Assembly: GCA_036172245.1 (NCBI GenBank)
Contig: JAYWIR010000009.1
Coordinates: forward strand, 1,302,001 to 1,366,000
Reading direction: 5' to 3'
DNA: 64,000 bases
Source: Raillietiella orientalis
Taxonomy: Eukaryota
The notes beneath the pieces were generated by a model. It did not search any database and was not told the origin of the DNA. It was given only the letters and a program-made list of their open reading frames with translations. Made by a program: the position numbers and the translations under genes. This document shows, piece after piece, positions 23,675 to 64,000 of the stretch; position 1 is the first letter of the stretch; each line of letters begins with the position of its first letter.

Positions 23675-23710
23675 TTATTATCTTGGGCATGAAGTTACAA
23701 GCTGACTAGG

Positions 23711-40783: not shown

Positions 40784-43259
40784 GATTTCTAGTCCACTCT
40801 TTTCAAGTTTGTAAGCTTACTGATATACCATCTGGAAAATGACTCAGCTGAAAATTCCATCTATTTTTGTTATAATTTTCTGTTATAGTTTTAAAAATTA
40901 TATGACCATGTGAAAAGTCTATTTTAATGTTTAACCTTTTAAGGGATGATGAGCATTGTCACCTCCCAAAAGTGCTCAAAAATGTCAAACATTATTGTTT
41001 TAAGTTTTTGTTTATTTTGATTTGAATCAGTAATGATACAAAAGGAAATTAAAAAAGCTTAACCAAAATTGTTGTTTTGAAGAACCCCTGTTAAGGTAAT
41101 TGCAGCAAACTTTGTCCAGACATTTAAGCATTATTTGAAAAGTCAATGCAGTTGAATTTGCCAGTCAGTGTATTTTATTAATTGCAGAAATATCACTATT
41201 ATGAGCATTTGTTGTATAAAAGGACTAAGTTCCTGCTTTAACATTTGCTTTAAAGAAAATTAATCCACAATTAATTTTATTTGCAGTGTTAATAAATATT
41301 TCATAATTCAGTACATGATTTAATATAATTTAATTTCATAATATAAAATGCAATCATGTATGCACGAAGTTTCAGCAAAAAAATCAAGATTCATGAGAAT
41401 ATCAAATGTTCAACTAAAGTTGCATTCTGAGGAATGGTAATTTTGTCCCTTCTGTATCCGATTTTTTAAATTTGCCTTTCCCACCCACAACAAAAGCCTT
41501 ATTTTCTTGCATAGTGTAACAATAAGCAAACTTTGTATTTGATCACGCCAGATTACTTTAGCTTGCGACGGTTTCTGGATGCTTGAAATACTTGTGATAT
41601 AGTATATCTTCAGATCAACTTTTGCAAATTACTCTGAATAGACATCATGTTACATAAGAAATAATGTTCCCAGTTCAATGTATGCAGTTGATAATTTTGA
41701 AAGAGGACATTTTTTTTTAGAATGGTAAGAATTCTTGGAATGGAATTGACCGACTATTCACAGTATCTTTGAAACATGTAAGACACGTTTCAGCATTAAA
41801 CATTTGAGCCCTTTTGCATATCAGATTTTCATAACAGGATTTTCAACTCGAACTTCCATTTTAACTACGCTCTAATCATTTCTCAACAGGTTCTGTTTTT
41901 GTTTGCTGCCAAAATATCATGTTTTGCACACACTGTATCCCATAAATCGTGTATTCTCTTATTCTTAAAATAAAACAATGAAATTGTTTACTTCAAGGAA
42001 AAATCATCTTGGAGGGTGGAACTCTAAAAGGTTGACCAAACTATTCATCAACCATGACCTCGCCATAAAACAAAAATTTACAGTACATGTTGTGGGAGTA
42101 ATATATCTTATTATATTTGCCTTTATTGTTTGTTCGTTTAGGTATTCCATTCAGTGAAATATGTGCACTGCTTAAACAACTTAAAGTTTCGAATCGGTAT
42201 CGGGCAACTCTGTTTCCGGTCCTAAATATGATTTATGGGCGGTTAAGTATTTTTTATGTAAAATCGTCACCACTGAAACTGCATTGCACCTTAATTTGAT
42301 GATGCCATGCAACCACGAATTTAAAAACTGCCATTTCAATCACGCTTGCCAGATATGAAAGTAAAAAAAAAAAGGAAGGATGCAAAATTGTCACAAAAGT
42401 ACTCCGAGCTTTGCAGCTTGCTTCTTGAAATAGCGAGGGCATTCGGAAGCAGACCGTACTTTTTTATTGCTTGTTTTTCACAGTGTGAAATTCTTTTTGT
42501 CTACAATTATTGGTTGAACCGTATCGGGCTTATTTAATCAAACGGATTTGCACTGGGGTTGTGTGCTTCCTTACAAAACTTCACGATCTAGAACAATGCG
42601 TAATATTGATTGAATATCTGTCTGGTTCTGTTGAATCATAGCTCGAATAAAGCTATTAAGCATCCTTTTTATTATGTCGCACTGGATTTGCATTTGTTCT
42701 CCTGATGGAATCAATTTATGTCTTGTAATTTAAAAACCATATCCTCAAGGCGAGTCAAGTGGTATTCATATTTTCCACGGGAAAACTTTAAATATTTAGG
42801 AAGTTTTTCTAACGAAATACATTCGTTTCTCTGAACACGATATATATATGATTGAGATTATAACGTTCTGTTTCCTATCAAATGAATATGTGTTGAACAC
42901 AACTCTTCCTGTGTCTGTTTTCGCTGCATTCTCAAGCTACTCAACTTTTGGTGATTTTGGAGGCTGCTAATGCTTTTTGATGAACTATTCATCTCTTGGA
43001 TCACCAATCCAACCATATTATCAGCCACAGTCAACTTCGTTCTCCATTGTAAGGGATCTAAAGGATCATTTTCAGCATTTTATCACATTTTGTACCTTAA
43101 TAACCTCTATTCTGAATCTAAAATGAAAGATCTTCACAAAACTGCAATTCATCTTGCACTGCTTTCTGATTGAAAAAAAGAATCATCCCATTTATCTCCT
43201 TAGATGTTTGGGTCAATATATCTCATCCCGATGCAAGGACTGTACTAATTTTTTTGTTT

Positions 43260-45199: not shown

Positions 45200-46380
45200 T
45201 GAAATTCTACTCAAGCGTCTATACTGCTTTCTGGAATCCCTTTGCTAAGCTGACCCTTTGTCCGGTTTTGGTAATGACCCGAACATACGTCTCTTTTCGG
45301 TTTCCTTTCTCTTCTGGCGTTCCGAAACAATTTGTTTTCAGATCTTGCAGTTTCTTGAGGATCACTGATTCCCAGTTATCCACGGCTTTCAAAGTTTTTT
45401 GGGATGCTCGCCAGAGTTGACCCCCTCCCATGATTCTGAGTCCTCCCAGTTTTTCGATCCCAATTCTGTGGGATCTTGTTCCCCAGGTCCCAAGCAATCT
45501 TCTCTGCCAGCGCCCTGCTTCCCAACGGATACTTCACAGGCCACCCTTTAGTCATCTTCACCTGCTCCACAGATGATCCCTTTCCACCTGCCAAGCAACT
45601 GGAAATTCGCCAGGGACATCAAAGGGCGGTTTTATTACTATCATAAGAAATATCTCTGCCCGCAGTGGATCCTCCCCTCGACATAAGTGAGGACTCCTCC
45701 GACGATGCGTATAGCTCCAGCACGAGTGAGGAGAGTGAAGAAGACAAAGTTATGTCCTTCACATTTTCGAGAAGTGCAACTGTCCTCCGTTGGTTCTTAC
45801 AGAGGGAAAAAATCCTAACATCTTTCTCTTTCATAGTAGAGCGCGTGCTTACGCGTGCTCTACGGGCACTCTGTAGATGACCAGTGATTACCGAACACTT
45901 TCCAATTGGTGGATACAATACTTAATAACAGTACGTACAATACTCACTAACAGTCGAAGGGAAGCACCCGCAAGGCATTTCCACGTGCTCCGAAAGTCCC
46001 CGCTGGAATGCGGGGACTTTCGAAGCCACCCGTTTTCGGGCCCACCCGCTGGGCCTTCTGATTCCTTGAAGTTTCCGAGGGATGGACCTTCGTGGCTCCG
46101 AGAGCGACAGGAATCGCATTCGGCGAGCTGGATGCAGAGTGTCTCCACGGCGGCCGCTTCCTGAGGGACAAAACAGGTTTCAGGCAGGTGCGAGGGCTCT
46201 GACCTATCGCAAGGCGAGGTGCGACAGCGAGACGCCGTTCTTGCGGAGGAGAGGGAACGGGGAGAGGACCCATCGAGGGGTCCACTCGTCCCTTTTTTCT
46301 TTCATCCTCAGTAAGCAAGAAATCCCAAACGTACCCTATGCTTTCATATCCAAAAAGTGTGCCGGGGAAACACAATGGGG
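45200..46380 (-). mobile_element. L1/Tx1-like ORF2 fragments (zf-RVT-like and post-RT segments)
   Basis: SLSHLAL..ETCFVP..VETLCIQLAECD near 46.1 kb and EKLGGLRI (cf. GGLG) near 45.45 kb. Confidence 0.45.
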
Positions 46381-46471
46381 CTAGATTAGGGGCAGGTGGG
46401 GTGTCGCTTCAGAGGGGGCTACACGATCACTCGAGCTGCTGCTTTGGGTTACTACGCACGTGTGTCGTTCC

Positions 46472-47407
46472 TCTTCTTTTTTTTCTATTTAAAAGACCAG
46501 CAGCGTCCTTACGGAGAGGTCGTTACTATCCGTCTCGGATGATGCGAATCCTTTGGGGTTCTTCTGTCTCGCTGCTTCCCTCCCAGCTTTTTTATTTTAT
46601 TTTATTTTATTTTTTGGGGTGAATGGGTGGAGTGAGGTTCCCTTCATTTGGTTTGCCAAATGCTGAAGAATCGCTCGTCTTCTTAGTCCCTCCCCCCACC
46701 CGAAGCCTTTCGACGCTGCCCACGCCACCCGAGGGTGCGTGTGACTCTTCGGTTTATAGGGTGTAACCATGGAGGAGACTGCCCTTTGAATCCAGGAAGG
46801 GACTCCGGAGGAAGCAGACCGTTCCTCTTACGCTTGGGTGGGAATCCCGAAGGGAACTCTCGCCCTGGTTGTCTCCAGAGGGAACTCCGAGAAGATCCGC
46901 TCCTGGAATTCCTTCTCCGGAGGGAACCTCCGCAAGGGAACCGCTCCTTGTTTTCCTCCTTCTCTGAAGAGAATCCCAGAGGGACGCTTCCCGATTTCTC
47001 TCTGAAGGTAGCGCTCGTTGAAGGGATCAGCGTCCTTCTCAGCGCTCTGGAGGGAGGCATCAACCAGCTCGATAGTCGCGGTGGAGGGGACCTCCCGGAG
47101 AGGGGAGAGGGAGAAGGGGGCGACTCTATTTGCACAAACGGAGGAGAACCCCGAAGAGCTCCTGGATTCCCGGAAGGATTCCGGAGGAGGGTCGAATTCC
47201 ATCGCGGACAGTCAACGGGGGCAGTCGGCTTCCACTGGATCCACACCCGAAGTCTACAGGCCAACGAGCGTCATCTTGCGGGGGTCTCGAAAATCACCAC
47301 GCACCGCGTGTTCTCGGGGGCGTCGATTCTCCACGCAGGGATTCGAACCCGCAGCGGTCGGTGTCACGCGCGGAGCCCGCCGCAGCCACACGGCCGCCCA
47401 TGAGGAC
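46472..47407 (-). mobile_element. Second near-full-length, diverged copy of the tRNA-derived SINE
   Basis: The minus strand starts GTCCTCATGGGCGGCCGTGTGG..GCGGGTTCGAATCCC, which aligns to 243-310. It shares the internal repeat block and ends GGATTCGCATCATC..ATAGTAACGACC..CGCTGCTGGTCTTTTAAATAGAAAAAAAAG, like 1196-1260. No clear TSD. Confidence 0.85.
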
Positions 47408-47409
47408 CC

Positions 47410-48550
47410 CCACCCCCCTTCCGGAGAACACGAAGCGATGCGTTTTCCGGTTTCTTCGCCCATCAGGAATCGCCACCGTGGAGTTCCCTGGTCATCACCG
47501 GTTCCATCCCACGTAGACGAGGAGAAAGGGATAAACATTCGGCGTCTCAGACGCGGAGGCTGAAATCTCCCGGAGCGATCGCAGGCTGTTTCGGGACCGA
47601 TGTATCCCTTTGGCGTCGGGAGCGTGAACGCACCGCATGGAATACCAACATGGGCTATTAGGAGGATTCCCGGGGACAAACGTCAACATTCCCTAATGGC
47701 TTTCCCAATAGAGCTCCGGGATGGAGGGAGGAGAGAGAGGAGGAGCAGGTGTGGACGTCGCGCCCCTGCTAGCCGGCGGCGCCTCTGAAGTTTCCCCAGA
47801 GCCCTTCCTCGGAAGCAGAGCCTCCCACCCCCTCTGTCTAGTGGGGATAGAGACCAGGAACCAGGCGGGAGTCGCTCGGGCTGCAACTGGTCACACTCAG
47901 CTCAGGAGAGACGGAGGTGCCATCTGCCGACGGGAAGCGGTGCGGAGGCTACTCCGCTCACGGAAAAATCGGGAGCTAGAATGCGCTCAGTGGCATTCCC
48001 GGGAACCCACGAGCCAGGAGACAGCCGTTTACTTCTGTCTGGATCGCATCCCTCCCTCTCCGCCCGGGTCCTTCGGATTCCTCCGAGCGGTTTCCAAGTA
48101 TCGTTGCAGGGAGAAACCAAGGAGGGATAGGGGCAGAGGGTCTCTTCGATGGGAGACGAAATTCCCGACGACCCCAAAAGGAAGGGAAAAAGTGGCATGA
48201 AAGGTTTCGTACGCTCTTCCCGAGACCTCCCATCCCCGTTCCGAGAGTTGCGAACCCAGACCTGGCGCGGGCAAGGGACAACAAGCTGTTCTCGGAGCGT
48301 GTCCGGAACGCCTGCGGTGCTGCCGGCAGTTCGGGGCAGTTATGGAAGCGTTCCCCTCCTAACCAGGGATGGGATGTCTCAAGCAAGAGCGTGTCGGGTC
48401 GCCTGGGAAACCTCCCGCGGTTTGGAAGCGTCGACTTGGTCTTTGAGAGACTTGATTGGATGCTTCTGTATCCCGTCGTCTCTGCTTTTTTTCCTGGGTC
48501 GGGTTCCTTCCTAGGCTCCTGAGACGCACTCCGGGAAGTAAGTCGCCCAC
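47410..48550 (-). mobile_element. LINE APE-domain remnant
   Basis: LPFGVVGNF (cf. IIGGDFN), PDFSVSG..GRWHL (cf. FT..DRFY) and a YW-K-like motif near 47700. Confidence 0.5.
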
Positions 48551-48949
48551 GCTCCCCCTTATCCTACGGGGTCTTCTGACCCGCTCTCTTCCAGTGGGCC
48601 CCTCGCGTGGAAAGAGGAACAGCAGGCAAAGGAACGTGTCTGCCGAAAGTGTCCCCAGTCACTCGCCCGTTCGTCGCCTTCGAAAGGCCTCACCGTCTCT
48701 GCAAGGTCCCGGCCGCAGAGCCGCTGCTTGGCGCGTCCTGCGAAGGCGGGCGGGAAAGTCCCATCTACCGTGACCGCTCGACCGCCTCCGATCTTTCCCA
48801 GAAGCCATCACGCTCCCCGTCAGATTCGACCTCCTCCTCCGTGCTCCCTCGTGGTGCTCCTTGCGCTCCAAAAGAGTGGAGATGGCCTCTCCGCTCCCTC
48901 CCAAGGAAAGCGCTCGCTGCGCATACCGAACAAGGGGGTGACTTGGAAC

Positions 48950-49550
48950 AGGAAGCCGCGGGTGGAACAGTGACACATACGAAGTGAGCTCGTTTGAGTT
49001 CCCGACCCATGCTCATGCCGTTACTTGAGGCATGCCTCCCACCCATGCTGCGACAGTCCAAGGGACTTTCCTAGAAGAGGAGCAAGGAGGGATTTTGTGG
49101 AAGCAGTTCAGCAAGGCGGGAACACTCCAGTCGGGCAGCGCAGGGGATGCGCCTACCTATGGAGTCGCTCGGTGCAGGAGAGGGAGGAGATTGCGCAGAG
49201 ACGCTGCGGAGACCCCGGTGCCGGTGCAGGTTGGTCATGCTGTTTGTCTGGGCCCCGCCGCCGGCCTGGACCTTTCCTTGTTTCACGAGCGCTCCGTTAC
49301 TTCCTGGAGGGTTCGGGAGCACCCTCTCCCTCCAGTGGGGAGATGGCTAGAGGTCGGCAGCCGCTACCACGCGGTTCGGATGCGCTTCCCGTCGCCACGG
49401 TGAAGCCTGACTACCGCCCGCCGCGCCAGAGCATGCAGTCCCGCGTCGCACTCGTCTGTTGCCCGTGCACCTCCTCCCACCCACCCCTCCTTTGCCTTTT
49501 ATCGAGAAAAAGGGGCCTTCTAATTCACATACGGGAAGTAAGAACGGGAA
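48950..49550 (+). mobile_element. LINE ORF1-like fragment with a decayed zinc knuckle
   Basis: RWLEVGSRYHAVRMRF followed by VCCPCTSSHPPLLC (C..C...H....C spacing). Confidence 0.4.
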
Positions 49551-49689
49551 GGGTCTCGTCGGGACGAAGGGAGAATATCCTGTATCCCTGGACGTGGTAA
49601 CGTAGCCTTTCTTGGACATTTTTACTGTCCTCCTTGCTGCTGCTTCTTTTGAGAGGAAGGAGAAGACGACTAGGATGATCGTTTCAGCG

Positions 49690-51000
49690 CTCAGCCTCCT
49701 CCCAGCCTAGGGAGCGCTTCGCCCACTGGGAGACGGACGCGGGAGTGGGCCTACCGGTCGGGAAGGCGTCGGAGGGCCAGTCTGCGAAGCCAAGCGAGGA
49801 ACGGAGACCCACGACCCTGACGATGCCTAGAGATGTCTGAGGGATTATCTTCTCAGACCGCGTCGTTGCTGGCCGCATCGTCCGGTCGACAGGAAGGGAT
49901 GCGAGCATTCCCTGCTGAAGAGGAGGGAGGAATCGGGAAGGCGCCGTGCTCTTCGCGGTCACAGCGTATCCCGAATTCCCCTGGCGTTGGCTTGCCGCTG
50001 GTAGAAGCATCTTAGAGACGGAACAGTCCTGAGCCTCCCAACGCCTCCTCGCGCAGGGCGGGACATTCCTTGTGCCTTGAGGATGCTCCGCGCGCATCCG
50101 CATTCGTGTGGCGCTTCGACTTCCTTGCTTGGTGACCGGCCACAGCTGCTCACAGAGAGGATCTGCGGTCATTCTGCGCTTACTCTGCGGGAAACGGTAT
50201 TCCCCGCCCATCGCACGCCACCCTGGGGGAAGTATCCGGCACACACGGACCCCGGGAGACGCACGCCGAGCGGAAGGCGAAGGAACGGGGTCATCTCTCC
50301 TCAGTCCCGCAGCCAGGCGCGGCTTTCTCAGGTCCACGTCCGGATTCGAGCCTTCCCACTCCCGGGGTGCGATGCAGGGACCAGGCGCTCGTCAAGGGAC
50401 CACCCGCGGCGGAGTCCAGTAAGCATCCTTCCTCTCTCGGTTGACCTCGCGCTGTGCCCAGGGAATTGATTCTCCAGAAGCGGAGGCAAAGGGGTGACGT
50501 CAGCGGTCCACAGGAGAGGAGAGGAGATGCTCATGCACTCGGGTTCTCTTGGGTCTGTCTTTCCCGCCCCGCCCGAGGGGCCCGTTCAGGAGAAGTCTGG
50601 CGCGCACGACTTGCTGCCGCCTTTGGCGGAGACAAACGGACAGGAGCAGTTCATTCGGAGGGGAAGTCGGGACGAGGACAGGAAGGAGGCGGGAGGCGGG
50701 AGAGGGAGAAACCCGTGGGTGGGGACAAGCCTTCCAGTGGCCAGCCGGACGACAAGGAGAGGGAAGAGTAGGGCATGGAGGGAGGAGGAGCCGGTGGCTG
50801 GCATAAAATCCCGACTGGCCGTCTCCTCTTCCGCACACGGGCTCGGGAAACCCGAGAGTGCGGTGTGCCGTGTGCGCCTCCATGAGGAGCATTGCTTCTG
50901 GAAAGCACTATGCCCATCACGTGCGCTTCCCAGATGGGCAGGGTGGGGAGAGGGGGGGCATCCTCCTTACCTTTCCGGACTCCTCCCTTTTCCTGAGCGC
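49690..51000 (-). mobile_element. L1/Tx1-like RT remnant
   Basis: Minus strand RTLGFPEP..FYA, LLLNGPL, LLWTADVT (cf. LFADDVT), EVNRERK (cf. KVN.EKS) and LGGSGL (cf. GGLG), in the expected order. Confidence 0.6.
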
Positions 51001-53949
51001 GCTTGCGCGGTTTATCCGCGGCGTGAAGAGGGAGCAGGGAGAGGAAGAAGGAAAGAGGGAACTTCCCTTCCCTCCCTTTGCCACTCCCTCCCCCTCCTCG
51101 GATGGTTCCAGGGATGGGCGGCAGTAGTGAGGTGTGTGAGGGAGCGCTTAGTATGGGGATCTAGGGGGCACGAATAGGGGGAGGGGGGAGAGGAAAATGC
51201 CCTCCCTGGAGACTCAGGCAGGAGCAGGCATCGTCTTTTCCCCTCCGCCGCCGTCACTCTATCCCTCGGAAGTAAGGGAGGAGGCCGAGGACCCTCGCCT
51301 TATTGAGGGAGGAGGAAGAAGCGTCGCATCCACGAGATGCGGGGAGGGCAGAGAGGAAGGGGTCTTTTCCCTTAGCGAGAGGGAGCTAAGGGAAAGGAGG
51401 GGAAGGGCTGAAGCGTCCGACTGAAGAAAACGCCGAGAGTGTCACTCCCTGTTCCCAAGGAGCTGAGACTAGAAAAGGGGAGTGGGGAGAGGAGGGGGCC
51501 ACTGGGCGACTCGAGGAAATCGGAGATAGAGACGGGAGAGCTCTCTTCTCGGATCCCGTCTCCTCCCGACTCTCACCGACAACGAGGACGAGGACAAAGG
51601 GAATAGAGGGACATTTCCCTGCTGATCCCCTCCCCCTCTCATCTGTCCCTCCTCCTCCACCGCTGCCACCTTCCTTCCTAAACGAGAAAGGACTCCTCTT
51701 CTGTCCGCTCCTTGGGAACACCTCCATTCCCTGCTTTTCCACGAGGGACCAGGCGGCCTCCGTCAGGATGAGGGCAGCCACGCTGGGGAGCTGAGCAGGC
51801 AGGACGGGACCAGAAGGACCAGGCCGTATGGAAGGGCAGGAGGCAGCTTTTTCCTTCTGCGCGCTAAGAACAGCCGATCGGACCCAACTGTTTTGGGCCT
51901 TCGCTCCTGAGCAACGAAGTCTCTGAAGGAAGAAGGGAGCGGTCACCGTCGAGGAAGCTCAGGCGCACCCGGAGCCGGAGCTCCAGGAGCGAGGGAGTTC
52001 GCGAGATCTTCCCTCGAAAGGCAGGCGGCGTCCGCTTTCCCCTCCCTTTCTTTGGGGAGGTTCGTTCCTGATCCGAAAGAGGGCGCGTCCGGTTGACAGA
52101 CGGGAACGGGACGGAGCGAAGGGAAGAGGAGCCTCCTGATATCGAGGCAGGAGGACTCGTCTTCCCTTGGGGCGAAAGGGAAGTAGGGAAGAGGAAGAGG
52201 GTTCGAAGGAGGAGGCAGAACTCTCCCCCATCCAAACGACCGCCTGCGCCTTTCCGCCGTCACGTCAAGATTTTTCCAGAGAGATTCCTGGAAGATGATG
52301 AGCCACGTGATCTGGAACTTCCTGCTGGTGACTCTCTTCCTCCTGCAGCTGGTCCAGGTGAACAAGGCGGACGGATGGGACCCCAGGTAAGGTTTTTCTC
52401 CAGCCGAAGCTCGTTTTCCTTCCTCTCTGCTCCCGGTGGGCTCGCGGGAGGAAGTCCCGACCTCTCCCAAAGGCTCTGCAGCCATCCGTCTGGCGACTCC
52501 CTCCTTTCCCTCCTCCATTAGCCCTCCTCCACTCGAACGAGATTGAGGAAACACCGCAAGGAAGAGCGGGCGCATCCTGGGCCCGAGGATCTTGAGGCCC
52601 AGGGCGGACAGATGTTTCCAGCAACTCTGCGGAGAGCGGAAGCTTCCGTGCTACGACCTCTGGCAGCGTTCAGGGACCCTTGGCCCCATGAAAAGGGACT
52701 TCGGGAGGGGGAGGGCCCACGAGGGAGGGCAAAGAAAAGGAATCTGCTCTATCGGAAGGTCAACTTTCCAGAACCTTCCGGAAGAGGATCTCCGACCAAA
52801 GGCTGGCCGAGCTGGAGGCCATGATGCACATCTCCAAGATGCGTCGTCCTGTCGTGGCCTTCGGCATTGTGGACCCACGAAAAGCGTAGGTGCCTCTCCT
52901 TTCCCTACTCCTCTCCCCGCAGGATGCGCTGTCGCTTTTCAGGGGCAAAAGAGAAGTGTTCTCGCCGCTCCAGGATTACGGGTCCTGGCTCCAGGAATAC
53001 GAGGACAAGGAGCCGAGCGATAAGTAGCCCTGCCGTCAGCCGACCTCCGAAACACCCGGAAGAAGACAGAAGGAGAGGAAAAAAAAGGAACAGTCGCTGT
53101 GCAAGAGGCACTCTGAGGCTGGAAACAATAAAAGACAATAAGACGAGAGTTCTTTTTTTGTCGGGACTGGGAGAGCACGGCGGGAGGAGGGAGGGATGTT
53201 CGGGAGTTAAAAGTCTCCCCTTCCCATGTTGTGGCAGCGCCCTCGGAGAGGATTTGCCTCACTCCCTCGCTGATGCAAGACAAGATTCCGGTCGTGGAGG
53301 CTGCTGATGAACTCAGCATTCATCTTTGTCTCTCCATCCTGGGGAGAACATCGGTAAGCATCCCTTTGCTCCCTCAGGTCCATTTCTAGCTACCGTTCGC
53401 CTCAGATGCCCACCCGTCGGCTGAGATAGAGAGGGACCGGATGAAGTTATTCAGTTTCCTCTTTCCTGCTCTCCCTTTGGCACTCCAGAAATCAATCCAG
53501 AGATTCACGCAAATAAGCGATTCCCTCGTGTTTCTGCACCCGCCCTCCTTCCTGGAAGGCTAGGGGTGCCTAGGGGGTCTCACCTTTCTCATGTAAAGGT
53601 TCCTCTCCATGTTCGGGTCGATCCGCCTTCTCCAGACCCGGTTCTCCACTTTGCGGAGGAGGGGTGCTGTATTCCCGTTTAACGGATAGACAGAAGTCGT
53701 TCCGAGGAGTGCTGGAAGGATCCATCGATCCAAGACTGAAGAACAGGAGCTCTGAGAGGAAGCCGTTCGAAAAAATTGGTAGGATGCGACTGAGGAGGAA
53801 AGGAAAAATGCGCAAGACGAAAAACAAAATGCTCGCCCCTCAGGACTGACACGGCCTCTGAAGGCTCCAGAGCGGCTGCGCCGATCCCCGAGATAATGCA
53901 GCCATCTCGTCGCGATGTTCCTCTGCGGGAGGGGCGAAGAGAGAGACAA

Positions 53950-54750
53950 CCCAGCAGACCGCCCAATCCCATGCAACCTTCAGGAAGACGCTCACGGGAG
54001 TTTATTAGAAGGAGTTCCCGCCTTTCCAACTTAGTGGATAAGCAATGAACCCTGAAGGATGCACACTGCCTTTGGGTACAGATCATGATTTTTCTGCAAA
54101 TGTGGAGGCTTTGGGAAAATGAGAATTGTGTGAGAAAAGGAAGATGGATCAGAAAGAAATTGGAGAGATGGACCGCATCTCTCAGAATCCTTTTAGCGTC
54201 TTTACTCTCTCCAGGAGTAGCCACTAAGGACTTTAGCAGCCTCGAAGTGCCTTAGGGGAAACTCTTGAGATAGGTTCGAGTGAGCTGCTCTGTGCAGTGC
54301 GATCAGCCTGTGGCTACTGATTTCAGTTAGCTCATGGGTCAGATAAAAGACATAATAGATGGCTTGAATGATGTTAGACGTCACAATGACTTTCCCTTCT
54401 TTATGTTCACTGTTGCCAGTAGCCTTCCAGTTCTCTTTGATTCCAGGAGAAGGCGGATTACAGCCAGCAATGGAAAACGTGAGTTGCTGGGTCCTGCGGC
54501 TAGCCACGAACGCTGGAAGGAAGATGGTAGTATTTCCCACGTGCGGGTCTATAGATCAACGAATATTCCTTCTGTGATGGGGGAAAAGTGAATACCTCAG
54601 CAGCTTTTCTTTCACCATCTGACAGCACCTGCTCTTTCCGCATGTGGCAGCCAAGTAAGCCACGTGCTTTTGACGTCACGAAACTCCGCTACAGGAAACT
54701 CCAACAGGTTTCTTTCTGCTCCAAACCTCCACCGAGTTTGGTCCCCTGAC
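53950..54750 (-). mobile_element. LINE APE-domain remnant
   Basis: TFSIAGCNPP..EGKVIVTSNI (cf. I..VYAP..IIVGDFN) and LSWKGGNSF (cf. WKLN). The matches are weak. Confidence 0.35.
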
Positions 54751-57700
54751 AGTCAACAGAATCAGCCCTTTTGTCTCCGTTGTTTGCCAATCCGGACGTG
54801 GCTCCTAAACAGTTTGCAAGAACAACGGTGCTCTAGCGGAACAACGTCACGCCATTACAAGTGCGCTCTTTCGTACAAAGCGACATCGTGAATCAGCTTA
54901 CCGAGGTCGAAAAAAAAAAAAAAGAAGCACATATTTCGCCTAAGGAGCTATAATAATCTAAGAAGGCTCTATTTCATCTTGTTTGCGTACTGTGTAAATT
55001 GTGGATCTGTGGATCTCTCAAACGGTGCTTCCGCTGATATCAAAACATCACACGCAAAAATCTCGCCCCTAGTGGCCTGTCCAGCAGATCGCAATCCCTT
55101 TGCACACAAGTGGGAAGCTCTTTCTTCTCCTTGGCCGCTGGATGTTTCCAATTCTTCCAGTAAGTGCACGCACTATCGGATATTTTTCTACTCATCGTCG
55201 TCACGTCGATCGTGCTCTAATCGTACCGTTGAGATCCAAAGAGAAACACATCGGTTCCCACAGAAATTCCACTGAGCCTTTTCCCCTCTACTGAGTCCCA
55301 AGCAAACAAACAGATCCCTGTGTAGTTTATGTAAGTACTCTTAGTGGCTTTGGTATCTTAACCTATCTAGGGACGTTCCGGATCACAAAGAGCAGCGGAA
55401 AGGAATCGCAAGCAGAGAATGGCTTAAAAGACCGGATTAAGGAACAGTGAAATGTAAATTCCTGATATACAAGATCGACCGTGAATGAACAAACAGCACA
55501 GTACACATCATTTCACAGGAGAACAGGTTGTCTGGCTGAATATGTACCCAAAACCTGAGCTAGACTGCACAGCCAGTCTCAGATACCTTTGTTTCCATAG
55601 TTTCCCAGCGTTCTAAGGTATCTTTATGGGTTGTTGTTCAGTTCTTACAGTATTCTTTACCAGCAACCTATTTAGAATGCTCGTCTGCTATTCAAAGAGT
55701 GCCACAAGATTCTTTAGATGTAGTCACTTGAACAAGGACACATGGGGAATACGAAAAAATCACCCCATTTCATCATGACAAACATCTTCTTAAACATGGG
55801 TTTCTTGGTAGATGTTTAATGCTGCAGCTCCCTCTTGTTTCGTTCATGGCTGGCTATGTTTGTTGACCATCAGTAAACGCTAACGTGTTTTCTTTTTTCT
55901 TTATTTTTATAATCAACATAGAGTTGAAAGAATATTTCATAAAAGCAGAAATAGAATCCTTCAGTTGAAATCCTCTAACCCCTCATTTTCGAATCTGGTC
56001 TGCCAGGCTTTGTGGAAATGAAACACCACCTATAATGAAAATTCATTTCACTGAAATCCGAGGCTGAGAGAACCCATTAAGTATTGATAAAAGTGCATAT
56101 GCTCACGGTAAGTGAAATTTACAGGAAGAATTCTATTAAGCACTCTATTTCCACAACATTAAAGTTCTATCGTCATAATGATTACATCTATTTCACAGCA
56201 TAGGGAGGAAATTGCTCGCTGCTTGCTATTCTATTTAGAAAGAGTCTTCTAAATAAAATAGTGAACATATTTTTAAAATTCATTTTGTTCGGATAAGCGG
56301 TTATTTTGACTACATTATCCTGTTTATCTTCTTCCATTTATTTATTAGGCCTGTGCCTATTAGAATTTTGTTTATTATAACTTTCATTTTGTTTCATCAG
56401 ATAAGATGCATAAATTTTGCTCAACCAAATTATGATTCATCAATTCAGATTTATGTATTCTCCAAGTGACAATTTGTAGGTCTCATTGAATATGGGGAAA
56501 TTGAAATCAGTTTCAAAGCATATGTTTCAGCATGCCTACAGTAGTAATTTCCGTAAGTGCAGAAATTTCCAAGAGGCATCCTTGTAGTGGTGAACACCGA
56601 TGACACTCACCACTTCAAGGAAATTTGAGAAATCATTTTTCTTTCCTTTCTGTTGTGTACCTTGAAACTTCTTGGATACTTCTCGCTTCGTAGTAAGTAT
56701 TGAGTCCATGAATACAGTGCACAAAATTCTAATCAACTTCAATTAGCCATTAAGTACTCGTAATAATTGCTCGGGATTCAGAAAATCACGACTGACTCTC
56801 TCTGTACCTCTTTCAAAGAGTCTTATTCAGTCTCTCAAAAAGATAGCTGTTTTTCCGAATACGGTAACTTTGGACTCATGGAAATGTATCGAATTTCATG
56901 TGTAAGCTGCGGATGCATTAAAATCTGGAACTCGTTTTCCCATCTTTTTCAGCGTAGATTGCGAAATAAAACGCCTCTTATTTTCCACAAGAGCAACTTT
57001 CACTTCCTCAGAAGTATTCTTCCGGTGATCCTAGCATAAGCTCGCATACAGATCCTGTAAACAATTTTGAAATCTCATTTCACCCGCAGCAAGGCTCCAA
57101 TTTTTAAAATCTTCGCAATTGGGGGATGTATTCAAAATCCAGAAAAATTTCAGAAACCATACGTGAATACAACACCTATCTAAGAATGCCAAACTTCAAG
57201 TTCATTAACTTCCGCTTGTTCTCGAATATGTATTCGTTTATATGGGGAATTTTTACAAATATTACAATTTTATAATAAGGACTGATAACAAAATAGAAAG
57301 ACATGCTCAATAGCTATTTGCTCACTCAATAGCGAACTACCCTGAAAGTCTATAGCAGGCTGAAAATCTATGATTTACGAATTAGCATGTTCCAAAGGTG
57401 GTCATGCTACACGCTGATTTCCGAAAATACAACTCTATTTATTGCATAGATTGCATGGAAAGACGGAAGATATTACTCTTCTACGAGGGCATATTTTGAT
57501 TTTTGAGATTTTTTTCCCCATATTTATGCAAGGTGCTGTATTTTGCTCAGGAAGGATGTTTGATAAATAAAAGCCATGCACCATAATAAATATACTGCTG
57601 TTGCTAAATACAAATGGTCTATGTGGCAATACGAATTAGCATCAATATGCTAGCATTAGCAGCAATACGTGTATCACTAAAGTAACATGACATGTAGAAC

Positions 57701-58342
57701 ATACTGAATGCTATATGCTTAAACATATATCCATATGTACTAACAGCATCTTACAAAACATCTAAATAATAAAAAAGTTTGCAAATCAACCACCCAAATC
57801 TTAATTTGTCCCTCATGGTAAGTACGATTGAATTCTGCTTGAATTAGGTCCCATAATTTGAAGGATGTAAGTCTTTTAAAATGTACGTTCATTTTTATTG
57901 AATATTATTAAGATATTTTATCAGAAGTCTACAAATTAATTGTTAAATCGATTGTTTGTTTGTTTGTTTCGTTCTTTTAATTTAGATGGAGGATTGAAAG
58001 AGAAGACTGCTTTAAAATGCTTTGAATCACTTTTGAATGGGTTAGAAACGTCACATGACTAGAGTAGGTCAAGAATAAATTGCAGATTATAGAATGGATT
58101 CCTTACTTTAAAAAAGCTGATAATACGTTTGTGTATAGTCCCAGCTGGACACTCACTCCCGTATTGTCAGGATGAGTCGAGATGGATATGAATAAGCAAA
58201 TTAATTCTGCATTTTAATTTCACGTGAAGATGTTTCTGTTTCAGAAATTACGTGTTGTTCAGGTCTGAAACATTTCTTTGTCTAGAATTAACCACGCAAC
58301 TTTAATCACTGAAATGTAAGTGCAGCTGGTATCTCTGTCCAT

Positions 58343-58357
58343 TGCGCGATATTTGAA
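58343..58357 (+). promoter_or_regulatory. CDE/CHR-like cell-cycle element upstream of CIP2A
   Basis: TGCGCG-ATA-TTTGAA about 140 bp before the ATG, with a second TTCGCGC at ~58472. Confidence 0.4.
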
Positions 58358-58497
58358 TCGCTAATCGATCTTTCTGTGTGGAGAAATGCTGGTTTATGAA
58401 GCTTCAGATTGAGATTTCCCCCCCAAAGCAAGCTCTGCGTGATTATTTTATGAATACCAACAGTGTTTAAGTTCGCGCACGTGGTTATTTTTGCGTA

Positions 58498-61130
58498 ATG
58501 AATACCAGAAGACAGTCAGTTCAGGGTTTGGATTCAGAGGTTACAAAAAGAATTCTTCTGTTTAACAAAGTGGTACTCATGTACCAAGGAACTAAAGATG
58601 AAAAGCTTTTAGCCGATATTCAAAGACAGGTTCAGGTAAGACTTTTCTGTTATTATGAAATCACTATCCTAGTGATTCATTCAATGCCTTTTCATTTGTT
58701 ATTTTGTTTGCAAGTATTGCATTTTTGTTCATAAAAGTCAACAAATCAATTGTGCGCTGGATTTTCAGATGCATTTATTTTCAGATTTTAACTTTTACTG
58801 ATATTGAAGAAAACTTTGACAAAAGTAGTTGCATACTGCTGGAATTTTATTTATCATTAAAATATTTACTGAGTTCTTTGGATCACCACTCAACTTTGGC
58901 ATGGAAGCTAATCAGTTTATTAGGAAAGACAATAAAGAACAATAATACACTCAATCTTATTAGATTTGAAATAGACCTTGTACCAGCAGTTATTCCATAC
59001 TTACCAAGTAGCATTCATAAAGGCAAGTTAGGAGAACTTTTGGAGATCATTAGCAAATTGATTGCTAAAGAAGATCTGTGGCATGGTAGATATGCAACAG
59101 AATTAGTAGACTTTTTGCTTCAGCAAATCAGGTCTCAAGATGATTGTGATAAAGAAGCACAATTACTCATTAGATTGTGTAGTGCAAACAATGCAGTACT
59201 GATGCATCTCATGGACACTTCCAGTAAAGATTTATTTCGCACTCTTTATAAAAATTCTAAAGCTCGTGACAGTTTTGACTTCAAGCTATTAGCCGATGTC
59301 TTACTTCTTCTTGTTAATTCAGAGTCTGTCAGTAGTCATGAGAAATTAGCCATGATGGTGTTTCATTCTTTGTCTAGAGATGGAGACTTCGATCCACTTT
59401 ATTCTACTCAGAATGCATTTATTGCTTTTTATGAACAGGATTCTGTCCATCAGGAACAACTACGAGCGTTGACCTCACCATCATTCTTAAGCATGCTTGA
59501 ATGTTCTGAGAAGTGCATTAATCAACCAGTTAAATTACAAATTCTGTTACGATGGTTATACATCTTACTTAATAAGGCGGACGTACTGAAAGAATCTCAA
59601 TACATCATTAGACTTTGCATGCTGATGCAGCAGTCTCTGCTATCTCCTATTGTTGCTTCACAAAGTGTTCGTCTATATCAAAAGTTTAGAACTTTGGGTC
59701 ATCAATTGGTGGAGTCCCAAGTCACCAGTCAAGTGCTGGCACTTGTTGAAGAATTTTTATTAAAGCCTTTTGCTGATTTACAATCTGATGACAGATTGTG
59801 GCTCAAAGAGCTTTTGCTTTTTGTTGATAATATCCTTTAAATGATGCATCTACTATAGTAACTTAATGAGGATTTTCCTCTAATGTTTTACAATTTTGGT
59901 AGCACACTTCTCAATTCCTTAGCTTCTCATTGTTAATTCAGGATAAAAGCAACTCTACACAACTAGTAGCAGTCATTCGACCCTCATTACTGAATCAGTG
60001 GCTCCATGATTTGCTTGATTCGGAGAACAAAGAGTGGCAGAATCAAGAGCAATTACTTATATCTGGCTTGTTGGTGCTCAGTCATCTTCCAGATAGTGAC
60101 TCCTATTTAGAGGAGTTACTTGATCGTGATGATCTCTCTTTATTGGTAGCCCAGCAGTTTTCTAACTTATTAGACGGAAATTACATGTTGCAACTATTTG
60201 TTAAGCACAACAGGTTGGTTGAACATTTGTGTATACTGCTCTGTAAAAGATTTATCAAGAATGGAAAAGTTCGGCAGCTATTTGCAGCAAGTTGCCCATC
60301 CTCACATAATAAGTGCAGCTAGCTGTAGAAGCCGTCCATCAACGTTATTGGCATATGAAGTTGATACTGCTCTACGTCGCGTTCAGGAACATCCTCAAGA
60401 GGATGTGCACATATCTTCAGTTATCACTGTTTATGAATATCAAGTGGCATCACTCCATCAGCAAATTAAACTTCTAAATCAGGAGTTGAGCACATCATGC
60501 CAGTTGAATCGATATTATAGGGAACAGCAGCATGTTGCTCACTTCCATCATACTGAACAAATAAGCAGTTTGACTCGCCATTTGGAGTCAATTCAAAGGA
60601 GTCATAAAAGTGTGCTAAACAAAATGCAGGATAACATGACGATGATGCAGATCCAATATGATACACTGCAACAGGATTACCTGTCTACTAAGTCCACATT
60701 AGATAAGCAGCAGTCAGACCTGCAACATACTAAGGAACAGCTTCAGGATGCAGAAGCACGCAATCATGGTAGATGAATATGTTTTCTCAATGCGTTAAAT
60801 TTTTCATTAGAACTTCAACTGAGTCAGCAGAAACTCAAGGATACCTTGGAAGCTAAAACACAGCAGATTGCAGCATTGCTACAAGAAGGAGAATCACTTC
60901 AGAAAGATCAGTCGAAATTGAAAAAGGTATTCAGTCCACAAAAATGACTTCTACATTATTTATTTCAGCAATTACGCGAGCAAGAACTACTAATAAAATC
61001 TCAAGAAGCGACATTAACAGAAAAAGAGGAAGAACTGCAGAAAATGGCCACAGAAATAAGAGAATTGCATAAGATGCGCGAAATGATAGTCGAATTATCT
61101 GCGGGTAGAACTCCCTATTTCAAAAACTGA
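58498..61130 (+). CDS. CIP2A: CIP2A (KIAA1524)-like armadillo plus coiled-coil protein, ~740 aa
   Basis: Exons 58498-58635, 58785-59829, 59931(or 59937)-~60242, ~60319-60768, 60811-60926, 60969-61130; the third junction is uncertain. Similar to CIP2A as recalled: YQGTKDEK..IQRQVQIL, ELVDFLLQQIRS, LLIRLCSANNAVLMHL, LFRTL, ISSVITVYEYQVASL, a Q/E/K-rich coiled coil and terminal KMREMIVELSAG. Confidence 0.8.
59830..59930 (+). other. U12-type (minor spliceosome) intron in CIP2A
   Basis: 5' splice site ATATCCTTT at 59830-59838, 8 nt before the in-frame TAA. Branch site TTCCTTAGC at 59915-59923. Frame-restoring 3' ends are ..CAT (59930) or ..TAA (59936). Confidence 0.8.
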
Positions 61131-62129
61131 AGCAAAGTGCCTCACTATCAGTCTGCCCGCATCTCAGGATATACGTGAAATCATTGAAACGTTTATTCTG
61201 CTTGTGTACACATAACTGGAAGCAGAAAGCACATAGGAGCACAGAAAAACAAACGAAGGAGCTTATAAAGCACATCGATGCATACTCCTATTTCGAAGTC
61301 GTGTGTTTTCACGGTGTGCAACAATTTCAATCGTAATTTCTCTGCCATCAAGGAAACGAATCTTATCAGTGGGATTATAGGCCAAGATTTTTGGCACAGC
61401 ATCTCACTATCCAGAGACATGTATCGCAGATGTTGTGCAAGGTATCCCTGCAATATACTTTCGGGAAACTTGAAAAAAGAAAGGAAGGGGGGGAGGGAGA
61501 GACAGCAGTATATAATCACTTGCTAACCTCAATTTTTTGTGAAAAAAGTGATCTTGCCATGACGCATTGGTCGCGTGTTCGCTGCGTGGACCGCCCGCAG
61601 CCTTTAGCCTGGTCTTCAATAAAGATGAACCATGAGAAATAGTGCTCGGGATTTCAACTAGGAAGCAGAGTTTGGAATTCGACTGTAGAAAATTGTTCGT
61701 CTTTTGAATTTTTTTATGATCTCATATGACATTTCCGAATTACGCACTATTGAATTAGAAAATTATGATCTTACTAAAATTTGAAGCTGGAGCGTTTATT
61801 CTTCACTGATTATGAAGTGAAAATCATTTCCATCACACACATGTCAATTCTGAAGAAGCTCTATCGATTAAATTAGTTTTGATTCTTTGTTACAACCATT
61901 GACTAGTGCTGTGACAATTTTGGTCTGATGTTGCACTGAAACACTAGAAATACATTATACTTAGTTTTGGCTGCAACACTGAAAGACTTAGATGCAGGCT
62001 TAGACATTGTTTCAGTGTTGCAGGCTTATATATCTATAGCTTAGATATTGTTTCATAGCTACGTTCGTAAACTAATCTTATGAGTTCAGCGTATCCACCG
62101 AGACCCGATCATTTAGTTTGAAAACCTTA

Positions 62130-62620
62130 GGATAATGTTACTTCACATGGGATTCGTAGATGACGACCATGTGACAAGCAGCTTGGGCAAGAATTTCGCT
62201 ACCTGCCTTATTTCCATTCCTCACACCTGCATACTTCAGAATTTCCAAAATCTGCACGCAAGTTGCAAGGTATGTGGTCGATTTTTATACACCTTTATTG
62301 TGAACATCAGTTGAGAAGAAACCTTGGAAAACGGTAAATTTGTTTTCCAGTTGCATACTTCAAGGACCAGCACTCATCTCTGGCAACACCGTAAGTATGG
62401 TATTTGGCGGCAAGTATGGAGAACCATCGAAACACGTGACCGACATGGATGCCAATCACAACTGCGAGTTGTAACTACATTAGTCAGAGATGGAGAAGAA
62501 GTGTAGTATCAATTCTGTCGGAAGCTTTTGTCGAAGTGCACTACTCTTGGAAAGACTGAAAAATCATCATCTACTCAAATGGGTGTACTCATTCTTTTAA
62601 TATGTAGGTTGTAGACATAA
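62130..62620 (+). mobile_element. LTR-retrotransposon integrase remnant
   Basis: KKPWKTV..QGP..YGEPSKHVTDMDANHNCEL (cf. PW..V..D..GP and FG.P..I.TD.G.NF.S.L). Confidence 0.4.
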
Positions 62621-64000
62621 AAACCGCTATCTTTAGTGCTTCGTTTCCAGTTCTAGATCAAAGCACAAGCGGACCTGGATCTGGATCTACTATGAACGGT
62701 TCTGCCACTCCTGAAGCAAGAAGGAACATTTACAACATTTTGTTGCATTAGTTTACTCGAACGAGCCTAAAGCTAGCAGGCTTTCCAAATGTCAGTTTAG
62801 TTGCAGATGTAAACAGGAGATCCGAATCACCAGCTTTTTTTTCTTTCTTTCTTCCTGGTTCTTCCGTAATCTTATCAGGAACAATACAAGTTGGCGATTT
62901 TCAAACACTTTGATGTTCTTCCTACTATAAGATACGTTCCTGTTTGAAAACTCTTTCAAAAAATACGGAGAAGAGTAATCCTTGATGCTGTCCTATGGAT
63001 ACTGATGTAATTCTCAGGCGGTCTACGTTTATTCTGATATTTTTTCCCATTCATTTCTCTCAAAGGTTTAAAGGAATTATTGTCTTTAAAATGTCTCGGT
63101 AAAAACTGAGAGGCTAATCTGATCAGAAATTATCAAAAACTCATAAAAAAGATCAAATTAAGTAGTGAGACAAAGACTGATAAAGAAATCTTTGCAAACG
63201 GTAATGCACCTAAATTTAAACTGTATAAATCTTCGTCTCAGATCTTTAGAGGAAACACTATTTCAAAAACTGTGCAGAAACAGGTTGGAGGCTTTCGATT
63301 TCGTGTCTGCAGAAAACTGAAGTTCGTTTGATCTGAGTGAATTTTCGGATAACCGACAACGAAGAGATTTCTCTTAGAACAGTTTTAAGAGAATGGATAC
63401 ATCACTGAAAGGAAAACGCGTGAAGGACCAATGCTCTATGGAGAACAGCCAAGAAGATTAGCAAGACGTAGTTAACAGTAGCATGCCAAAAGATTGAAGG
63501 TAGCGCGTAATGTAAAGCGTTATTTTGCTTCATGGCGAACGTGGAGATTTGTTGAATGGATTGGATCGACCGCTTGTCTACGTCACGACATGACGTCACG
63601 AATAAGAATAAGCAGAGTTTCCAGAGATCACGTCGTTTTTCGGAATGCGCTGGAGACTGTCTACTTTTCTGCTCGAGCACGCTTGCATGCACTCGTGTAA
63701 GTGTGCGTTAACATTCCGTTTCAGAGGGCAACATGGCAGTGCAAGATGCTTTTGGAGGTTAGCTTCAGTCTGCCCTGAAGTGTTGAGTTTTCGTGCCAGC
63801 AGATTTTCAATGGAGTCACCGCAATCGGCGGCCTTCTGAGATGAGACTCGGAAAACACAAGGGTTGTCATAGAAATATATATATCAAGGTGTTTCCAAAA
63901 TGTGAAATTCATCTTGAGCATGTGAACGCTTACATAGTATGAAACAAAGAGTACCGAATAAGTTTTGGCTCTTGGAAGAACTGAAGCACCTCAGTATTTA

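What the first reader, a model, noticed from the sequence alone, without database searches (positions are those of the whole stretch)
59830..59936. Minor-spliceosome intron in CIP2A that appears to need non-canonical AT-AT or AT-AA termini
Seen: the long CIP2A exon runs into a perfect U12 donor, ATATCCTTT, just before a stop. A U12-like branch box (TTCCTTAGC vs consensus TTCCTTRAC) lies ~85 nt later, and coding resumes right after it. The donor is phase 1. The nearby AG (59941) and AC (59953, 59958) would shift the frame, and the first in-frame AC (59960) is 39 nt from the branch A. The only in-frame ends at a usual distance are AT (59930) and AA (59936). Established: U12 introns are normally AT-AC or GT-AG, other termini are rare, and some lineages (e.g. 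C. elegans) have lost the minor spliceosome. Inference: this organism keeps U11/U12 despite tiny major introns, and standard gene predictors would split or mis-splice this gene.
Basis: partly seen in the sequence, partly recalled or inferred. Interest (0 to 1): 0.75.

Follow-up and report, generated by a model that had tools for sequence, protein, structure and literature searches.

The report
Minor-type intron in CIP2A gene
A diverged invertebrate copy of the CIP2A gene holds a rare minor-spliceosome intron, as the mammalian gene is already known to do, and here it seems to end in AA or AT, not the usual AC, although no RNA data were available to show the exact cut.

Summary
A 1,045-base exon ends in phase 1 at a perfect U12 donor (ATATCCTTT, 59830-59838). 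A one-mismatch U12 branch box (TTCCTTAGC, 59915-59923) lies 85 bases later. Donor plus box occur together about 3.5e-7 times per base in simulated sequence.

The gene is a diverged CIP2A. Three of the four exons tested (not exon 3) match a crustacean CIP2A profile in the same order, and the fold model of exon 2 is closest to human CIP2A.

Human and mouse CIP2A are already catalogued as minor-intron genes with the same nine-base AT-type donor. The mouse intron is also phase 1.

The only in-frame GT donor (59823) scores below all 12 inferred major donors in the window and no better than a random GT.

The most likely reading is therefore a genuine U12 intron with a non-canonical 3' end. AA at 59936 (15 nt past the branch A) is favoured over AT at 59930 (9 nt). 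AT-AA and AT-AT are the two commonest non-canonical minor termini in animals, so this is a new member of a known kind.

The exact 3' site, the minor snRNAs and the base calls could not be tested: no RNA runs were listed and no genome is held. Earlier scan notes, unchecked, report other U12 introns in this genome.

The parts
58498..58635 (+). Exon 1 of the CIP2A-like gene (ATG at 58498; ends in phase 0)
   Evidence: Read and the ORF 58471-58734. Inferred, with no RNA support.
58636..58784 (+). Intron 1, major type, CAG|GTAAGA ... TTTTCAG, 149 nt
   Evidence: This is the only in-frame join of the two ORFs that I found by eye.
58785..59829 (+). Exon 2 (1,045 nt), armadillo-repeat N-terminal part of CIP2A; ends after the first base of a codon (phase 1)
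   Evidence: ORF. hhalign against a profile of 11 crustacean CIP2A proteins gives 96.3%, E 1.7e-9. The AlphaFold model (pLDDT 71.8) is closest to human CIP2A 5ufl_B: Z 17.4, rmsd 5.5, 327 aligned, model 1-348 on chain 29-424.
59830..59838 (+). U12-type 5' splice site ATATCCTTT, 9 of 9 to the consensus RTATCCTTT
   Evidence: The intronic 9-mer is identical to that of the human and mouse CIP2A minor intron (Olthof 2019, supplementary file 1).
59830..59936 (+). Candidate U12-type intron under the preferred reading AT-AA (107 nt). The alternative in-frame end is AT at 59930 (101 nt).
   Evidence: Frame enumeration. The 3' end is inferred and was not observed.
59915..59923 (+). U12-type branch box TTCCTTAGC (8 of 9 to TTCCTTRAC); candidate branch A at 59921
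   Evidence: It is the only 9-mer with 2 or fewer mismatches in 59839-59995.
59823..59941 (+). Rival major-type GT-AG intron (TTT|GTTGAT ... TTAATTCAG|G, 119 nt, in frame). The same donor could also join the TAG ending at 59902 (80 nt).
   Evidence: The donor scores -6.64, against -0.58 to 8.06 for 12 inferred donors. Of 407 random GT sites, 72.7% score at least as high.
59937..60213 (+). Exon 3 (its start depends on the 3' site used); ends in phase 2
   Evidence: Open frame 59903-60322. It has no detectable match to the CIP2A profile.
60214..60277 (+). Major intron, CAG|GTTGGT ... GGCAG, 64 nt
   Evidence: by frame continuity.
60278..60768 (+). Exon 4, start of the coiled coil, with the YEY motif
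   Evidence: hhalign against the CIP2A profile gives 68.8%, E 4.5e-5, profile columns 592-747.
60769..60810 (+). Major intron, 42 nt (ATG|GTAGAT ... CATTAG)
60811..60926 (+). Exon 5 (coiled coil)
60927..60968 (+). Major intron, 42 nt (AAG|GTATTC ... TTTCAG)
60969..61130 (+). Last exon with the conserved CIP2A C-terminal tail; stop TGA at 61128-61130
   Evidence: hhalign against the CIP2A profile gives 95.4%, E 1.8e-8, profile columns 806-852.

Best explanation
The stretch from 59830 to about 59936 is a genuine U12-type (minor-spliceosome) intron of the AT subtype in a diverged CIP2A orthologue. It is probably the same old intron that human and mouse CIP2A carry.

U11 would recognise the ATATCCTTT donor. 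U12 would pair with TTCCTTAGC, bulging the A at 59921, with a G-U wobble where the consensus has an A-U pair.

No AC or AG lies in frame within reach of that branch site. The productive mRNA must therefore be made with a non-canonical 3' end. The most likely end is AA at 59935-59936, which is 15 nt from the branch A, gives a 107-nt intron and a split codon A|TT. Less likely is AT at 59929-59930, which is 9 nt from the branch A, gives a 101-nt intron and a split codon A|TG.

Shown: the motifs, the frames, the gene identity, and the weakness of the rival donor. Inferred: that the minor spliceosome acts here, and which 3' nucleotide is used.

My sub-odds: U12-type about 0.85. Given that, a non-AC/AG end about 0.8. 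AA specifically about 0.5.
For: - The 9/9 donor lies exactly where the 1,045-nt exon must end, 8 nt before its stop codon. The 8/9 branch box lies 85 nt later.
- The pair occurs by chance about 3.5e-7 times per base.
- It is the only branch-like 9-mer in the interval.
- Gene identity as CIP2A: phmmer hits are crustacean CIP2A proteins, and these hit human CIP2A at 1e-13 and 3e-28. Profile matches run in the same order for exon 2 (96.3%), exon 4 (68.8%) and the last exon (95.4%). The best structural match is 5ufl_B at Z 17.4.
- Human and mouse CIP2A minor introns have the 5' site TAA|ATATCCTTT (Olthof 2019, PMC6717393, supplementary file 1 row 177).
- The mouse Cip2a minor intron is phase 1 (PMC12956336, passage) and has a perfect consensus donor (PMC8848931, passage).
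- The human minor intron lies upstream of exon 13 (coordinates). The end of exon 2 maps near human residue 424. The two are compatible.
- The in-frame GT donor scores below all 12 inferred donors and below the mean of random GT sites.
[quoted passage not shown] Counts are in Sheth 2006, Table 2.
- The 3'-most nucleotide is tolerant of change in AT-type introns (PMC1635337; PMC8280824).
Against: - No RNA evidence of any kind.
- The minor snRNA genes could not be sought, because no genome is held.
- The branch box has G where the consensus has A at position 8.
- Neither candidate end lies at the stated optimum of 11-13 nt from the branch site (PMC3584512). AT at 9 nt lies below the 10-20 nt range that older classifiers used (PMC1557818).
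- Non-canonical termini make up only about 3.8% of conserved animal minor introns.
- Pfam CIP2A_N does not hit the window protein directly, even at E 10. Exon 3 has no detectable CIP2A match.
- Identity of intron position with the human gene was not shown at codon level.
- The structural match stands only 1.2 Z above unrelated repeat proteins.
- The 13 major donors used for comparison are my own inferences from frame and domain continuity.
Confidence: 0.65

Rival explanations
1. The intron is removed by the major spliceosome from the in-frame GT at 59823 to the AG at 59941 (119 nt), or to the TAG ending at 59902 (80 nt). The U12 motifs are then a relic of an ancestral minor intron or are unused.
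For: Both joins are in frame and free of stop codons. TTAATTCAG|G resembles the other acceptors of the gene. Conversion of U12 introns by activation of a nearby cryptic major donor is known (PMC3584512, passage). Two of the 13 inferred donors also have T at +3.
Against: The donor TTT|GTTGAT scores -6.64 against -0.58 to 8.06 for 12 inferred donors, and 72.7% of 407 random GT sites do as well or better. It lacks G at -1, which 11 of 13 donors have. It lacks a purine at +3, which 11 of 13 have. It also lacks G at +5, which both donors with T at +3 have. A relic would not be expected to keep a 9/9 donor and an 8/9 branch box. The chance rate of the pair is 3.5e-7 per base.
Confidence: 0.1
2. The termini are canonical in the real genome and the oddity is an assembly error. 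Either C is miscalled at 59930 or 59936, giving AT-AC. Or the run of five T at 59818-59822 really has four, which would put the exon end in phase 0 and make AT-AG at 59941 in frame.
For: One base change or one homopolymer slip is enough (my reading). AT-AG is the most frequent non-canonical class in Sheth 2006 Table 2, with 11 human cases. Earlier unchecked notes of this scan list other single-base splice oddities in this genome, a TT-AG and a TG acceptor. These could point to base errors.
Against: Phase 1, as read here, agrees with the phase given for the mouse Cip2a minor intron, whereas the four-T version would give phase 0. No reads were available to test either way. AT-AG combinations are described as disfavoured (PMC3584512).
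Confidence: 0.12
3. The minor spliceosome mostly uses the out-of-frame AG at 59941 (20 nt from the branch A) or the AT at 59937. This gives a transcript with an immediate stop, so only a minor fraction is productive. The intron would then act as a brake on CIP2A output.
For: Choice of the U12 3' site is described as error-prone (PMC3584512). [quoted passage not shown] Cip2a minor-intron splicing is sensitive to loss of the minor spliceosome in mouse.
Against: Nothing in the sequence calls for it. The downstream exons are intact and conserved to the last residues, so a productive join must be common enough. No RNA data.
Confidence: 0.08

Closest known systems
The catalogued minor (U12-type) intron of human and mouse CIP2A (Minor Intron Database; Olthof et al. 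2019, PMC6717393, supplementary files 1 and 8)
   Same: Same gene family. Same AT subtype. Identical intronic 9-mer ATATCCTTT. The split codon begins with A in both. Phase 1 in mouse (PMC12956336) and here. Both lie in the armadillo part of the protein, upstream of the coiled coil.
   Different: The human intron is 1,516 nt and the mouse intron 1,202 nt, against about 101-107 nt here. Their branch boxes are of the form ATCTTAAC, against TTCCTTAGC here. I did not see the 3' ends of the mammalian introns. Equivalence of the codon position was not shown.
Non-canonical A-type minor introns AT-AA and AT-AT (Sheth et al. 2006, PMC1557818; Alioto 2007, PMC1635337; de Wolf et al. 2021, PMC8280824; Larue and Roy 2023, PMC10639083)
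   Same: A U12 donor and branch box with a 3' terminal nucleotide other than C. Examples are RASGRP4 (AT-AA) and ERCC5 (AT-AT) in human.
   Different: Those cases rest on transcripts. Here the end is deduced from the reading frame alone.
Very short minor introns, for example Blastocystis with a mean just under 42 bp (Larue and Roy 2023, passage)
   Same: A minor intron in a genome whose major introns are at the minimum size.
   Different: This intron is not miniaturised. At 101-107 nt it is longer than 8 of the 11 major introns measured in the window.

Membership tests
U12-type (minor-spliceosome) intron | 5' splice site matching RTATCCTTT | tested here: met
   ATATCCTTT at 59830-59838, 9 of 9.
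U12-type (minor-spliceosome) intron | Branch point sequence TTCCTTRAY close to the 3' end (10-20 nt, optimum 11-13) | tested here: met
   TTCCTTAGC, 8 of 9. The distance from the branch A is 15 nt to the AA end, 9 nt to the AT end and 20 nt to the out-of-frame AG. Ranges are from PMC3584512 and PMC1557818.
U12-type (minor-spliceosome) intron | Canonical termini AT-AC or GT-AG | tested here: not met
   No in-frame AC lies nearer than 39 nt to the branch A, and the AG at 59941 is out of frame. Termini do not define the class (PMC3584512). About 3.8-5% of minor introns lack them.
U12-type (minor-spliceosome) intron | Removal by U11, U12, U4atac and U6atac snRNPs; these genes present in the genome | not testable with these tools
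   No genome is held. The window has no Rfam match. No RNA runs were listed. Unchecked scan notes mention other U12 introns and a ZCRB1 gene in this genome.
U12-type (minor-spliceosome) intron | Orthologous intron of minor type in other species | tested here: inconclusive
   Same gene, same subtype, same donor 9-mer and same phase as mouse and human. The positions are compatible but were not mapped to the codon.
CIP2A | N-terminal armadillo domain (Pfam PF21044, CIP2A_N) | tested here: inconclusive
   There is no direct Pfam hit, even at E 10. hhalign against 11 crustacean CIP2A proteins gives 96.3%, E 1.7e-9 over 164 columns. Those proteins carry PF21044 and hit human CIP2A at 3e-28. The model's best PDB match is 5ufl_B at Z 17.4.
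CIP2A | C-terminal coiled coil with the conserved tail, in the same order as the N-terminal domain | tested here: met
   Exon 4 matches profile columns 592-747 (E 4.5e-5). The last exon matches columns 806-852 (95.4%, E 1.8e-8).

The most novel reading that the evidence does not exclude
In this compact arthropod-like genome the minor spliceosome no longer requires C or G as the last intron base, so AT-type U12 introns commonly end in AA or AT. If a genome-wide tally with RNA support bore this out, it would be a lineage-wide relaxation of the U12 3' rule alongside extreme intron shrinkage.
Probability: 0.15. Interest if true: 0.55.

Novelty: new member of a known kind. Interest (0 to 1): 0.3.

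Why it matters
Gene predictors that allow only GT-AG (or AT-AC) would truncate, split or mis-join this CIP2A gene. The annotation therefore needs a hand-curated join.

Biologically it adds an invertebrate case to a minor intron already catalogued in mammalian CIP2A. It adds one more probable AT-AA or AT-AT terminus. With RNA data it would also give a small test of how the minor spliceosome picks a 3' site when no AC or AG lies in range.

It does not change what is known about minor splicing.

Tried and rejected
RNA, genome and snRNA data:
- No RNA holder was listed for 58700-61200, so read laying could not be used.
- No whole genome is held, so U11, U12, U4atac and U6atac could not be sought.
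- The Rfam scan of the window found 0 families. This says nothing about the rest of the genome.

Direct identification of the gene:
- Pfam gave nothing for exon 2, the 59903 frame or exon 4, and nothing for exon 2 at E 10.
- phmmer of exon 2 against PDB gave only weak COMMD9 hits (E 0.025), which I take as chance.
- phmmer of the 59903 frame against PDB gave nothing.
- The word-indexed protein search with 'longer' lengths gave nothing.
- The ESM Atlas gave only generic HEAT/ARM-like neighbours with low recognition.
- Exon 3 does not match the CIP2A profile.

Relatives and earlier scan notes:
- The metagenome contig scan found no relative.
- Scan notes by place near, by sequence and by relatives gave nothing.

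Papers:
- The supplements of PMC12956336 and PMC8848931 could not be read. The exon numbers and 3' ends of the mouse Cip2a minor intron remain unseen.
- Levine and Durbin 2001 (PMC60238) and Dietrich et al. 2005 (PMC1370826) are not held. What I say of them comes from citing papers only.
- The hits of the papers search for CIP2A plus U12 gave no intron position. I opened one further hit, PMC12475092, which names CIP2A only in its reference list.

Other sites and readings:
- The other three RTATCCTT sites (2531+, 18387+, 60837-) are not at evident exon ends on inspection and fit the chance expectation.
- In-frame AC ends at 59960, 59963, 59981 and 59990 were rejected, because no branch-like 9-mer with 2 or fewer mismatches lies before them.
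- Skipping exon 3 altogether was rejected, because a 139-codon open frame in 35% GC DNA is unlikely by chance (my estimate).
Full report
**What is in the sequence.**

On the + strand a frame that is open from 58659 runs to TAA at 58938-59840 in window numbering 59838-59840. Its last bases read ...GTT GAT A|ATATCCTTT, so ATATCCTTT occupies 59830-59838. An exon ending at 59829 stops after the first base of a codon, which is phase 1.

TTCCTTAGC lies at 59915-59923, 85 nt after the donor. It differs from TTCCTTRAC at one position. Its only candidate branch adenosine is 59921. The G that follows could still pair with U12 as a G-U wobble (my reading, not a computation). A second frame is open from 59903 to 60322.

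I enumerated every join that keeps the frame open from 58785 to 60213. With the donor at 59830:
- The AG ending at 59941 and the ACs ending at 59953 and 59958 are out of frame.
- The nearest in-frame ACs end at 59960 and 59963, which are 39 and 42 nt past the branch A.
- The in-frame ends 8-21 nt past the branch A are AT (59930, 9 nt), GT (59933, 12 nt), AA (59936, 15 nt), TC (59939, 18 nt) and GG (59942, 21 nt).

The only addition is that in-frame ends not of the form A-N also exist.

**Is it more than chance?**

Taken singly the motifs are not enriched. RTATCCTT occurs 4 times in the window against 3.79 expected. The branch box with up to one mismatch occurs 34 times against 37.96 expected.

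The arrangement is another matter. In 20 Mb of first-order Markov sequence trained on 56000-64000, a 9/9 donor followed 40-200 nt later by such a box occurred 3.5e-7 times per base. That is about 1e-5 for the 30 nt or so in which this exon has to end. The box at 59915 is the only 9-mer with two or fewer mismatches between 59839 and 59995.

**The gene.**

Reading together gives a six-exon model:
- Exon 1: 58498-58635, with the ATG at 58498.
- Intron 1: 149 nt.
- Exon 2: 58785-59829.
- The intron in question.
- Exon 3: ends at 60213.
- A 64-nt intron.
- Exon 4: 60278-60768.
- A 42-nt intron.
- Exon 5: 60811-60926.
- A 42-nt intron.
- Exon 6: 60969 to the TGA at 61128-61130.

This model is inferred from frames, not from RNA.

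Direct searches did not name the gene. Pfam found nothing. PDB by sequence found nothing relevant. A word-indexed search found nothing.

An exhaustive phmmer search of 1.84 billion representatives gave three hits, the best at E 1.7e-5. All three are crustacean proteins. One cluster holds 'protein CIP2A [Penaeus vannamei]' and another is labelled 'CIP2A N-terminal domain-containing protein'. The best hit matches human CIP2A (PDB 5ufl) at 1e-13.

I then built a profile of 11 malacostracan CIP2A proteins. Its matches are:
- Human CIP2A at 3e-28.
- Exon 2 at 96.3%, E 1.7e-9.
- Exon 4 at 68.8%, E 4.5e-5.
- The last exon at 95.4%, E 1.8e-8.
- The three exon matches run in the same order along the profile.
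- Exon 3 gave no match.

An AlphaFold model of exon 2 (mean pLDDT 71.8) is an armadillo repeat. Among Foldseek's matches human CIP2A has the highest TM-score shown, 0.59. It ranks first on re-alignment: Z 17.4, rmsd 5.5, 327 residues, model 1-348 on chain residues 29-424. The next row is at Z 16.2, so the margin is modest for a helical repeat.

Taken together the gene is a diverged CIP2A orthologue.

**What is already known about CIP2A.**

Human and mouse CIP2A are catalogued minor-intron genes. Olthof et al. 2019 (PMC6717393, supplementary files read by term search) list the 5' site TAA|ATATCCTTT in both species. They give branch regions with ATCTTAAC. The introns are 1,516 nt (human, chr3:108566639-108568154, minus strand) and 1,202 nt (mouse).

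A 2026 paper gives phase 1 for the mouse Cip2a minor intron (PMC12956336, passage). A 2022 paper lists it among introns with a perfect consensus donor (PMC8848931, passage).

The intron here therefore shares the gene, the AT subtype, the nine intronic bases, the A that starts the split codon, and the phase.

For position I have only compatibility:
- The human minor intron lies a few kilobases upstream of a segment of intron 13, at 108561721-108562069 (NOCIVA preprint, passage). It therefore falls before exon 13.
- The end of exon 2 here maps near human residue 424.
- I could not see the human exon boundaries.

**The major-type rival.**

The one in-frame GT near the exon end is at 59823 (TTT|GTTGAT). 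It could join the AG at 59941 (119 nt) or the TAG ending at 59902 (80 nt).

To judge it I inferred 13 major donors in the window from frame and domain continuity:
- Four in this gene.
- Three in a Wee1-like kinase gene on the minus strand.
- Six in a doublecortin-kinase gene on the plus strand.

Eleven of the 13 have G at -1 and eleven of the 13 have a purine at +3. The two with T at +3 have CAG before the cut and G at +5.

I scored twelve of these donors leave-one-out with a small weight matrix. They scored -0.58 to 8.06. The rival scored -6.64, below the mean of 407 GT sites in 56000-64000 (-4.39), and 72.7% of those sites did at least as well.

The sample is small and the introns are my own inferences. 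Even so, the rival donor looks like any GT.

**Which 3' end?**

This cannot be read from DNA. What the literature offers:
- A review gives 11-13 nt as the optimum distance from the branch site to the 3' site, and calls the choice error-prone (PMC3584512, passages).
- Older classifiers required 10-20 nt (PMC1557818, passage).
[quoted passage not shown] - In human, Sheth et al. 2006 counted 11 AT-AG, 3 AT-AA and 6 AT-AT (Table 2).
- In a pan-eukaryotic survey AT-AA is the commonest and AT-AT the second commonest non-canonical minor terminus in animals. Non-canonical ends are about 3.8% of conserved minor introns (PMC10639083, passage).

On distance I favour AA at 59936 (15 nt) over AT at 59930 (9 nt). 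The AG at 20 nt gives an immediate stop codon.

**Other rivals.**

A single miscalled base (C at 59930 or 59936) would restore AT-AC. One T fewer in the run at 59818-59822 would put the exon end in phase 0 and make AT-AG in frame. The latter would disagree with the phase reported for mouse. No reads could be laid.

**Does the organism keep the minor spliceosome?**

I could not test this. No genome is held and the window holds no snRNA.

Earlier notes of this scan, which I did not check, report other U12-type introns in the same genome: in MCMBP, RFC5, hnRNP M, Rab6, PHB2, prospero and ESRP. They also report a ZCRB1 gene. The MCMBP note says that intron too lacks an AC end. Another note reports an AT-AC minor intron in a CIP2A-like gene of a different genome. 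That note led me to the Minor Intron Database entry, which I then verified in the paper's supplement.

**Verdict.**

The intron is very probably a true U12-type intron inherited with the gene. It probably needs an AA or AT end. Both the host gene and the kind of terminus are already known, so this is a new member of a known kind.

It is useful for annotation. With RNA data it could also serve as a small natural test of 3' site choice by the minor spliceosome.

Noticed in passing
window 37400-40800 (+): A doublecortin-plus-kinase gene (two DCX domains, E 1.8e-34; Pkinase, E 5e-27). It has several introns of 40-45 nt, for example 39358-39399, 39880-39919 and 40302-40343.
   Followed up: partly
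window 23600-25500 (-): A Wee1-like protein kinase gene (Pkinase in two ORFs, E 1.5e-20 and 4e-10). Its introns are 40, 44 and 130 nt (25026-24987, 24755-24712, 24349-24220).
   Followed up: partly
window 1-16000 and 46000-54000: Two blocks of 52-62% GC sit in an otherwise 34-44% GC window. They carry many long open frames on both strands but no Pfam match (9 ORFs from these blocks tested). The two blocks share only one 121-bp match at 82% identity. Their nature is unexplained.
   Followed up: partly
window 59900-59902: The TAG that opens the downstream frame is also an in-frame major-type acceptor for the weak GT at 59823 (80-nt intron). That join would turn the U12 branch box into coding sequence.
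   Followed up: yes
window 2531, 18387 (+) and 60837 (-): Three further GTATCCTT sites. None is at an evident exon end on inspection, and the number fits chance (4 seen against 3.79 expected).
   Followed up: partly
window 58636-61000 and the two kinase genes: Major introns fall into a minimal class of 40-45 nt (8 of the 11 measured) and a few longer ones (64, 130 and 149 nt). The U12 candidate (101-107 nt) belongs with the longer ones.
   Followed up: partly
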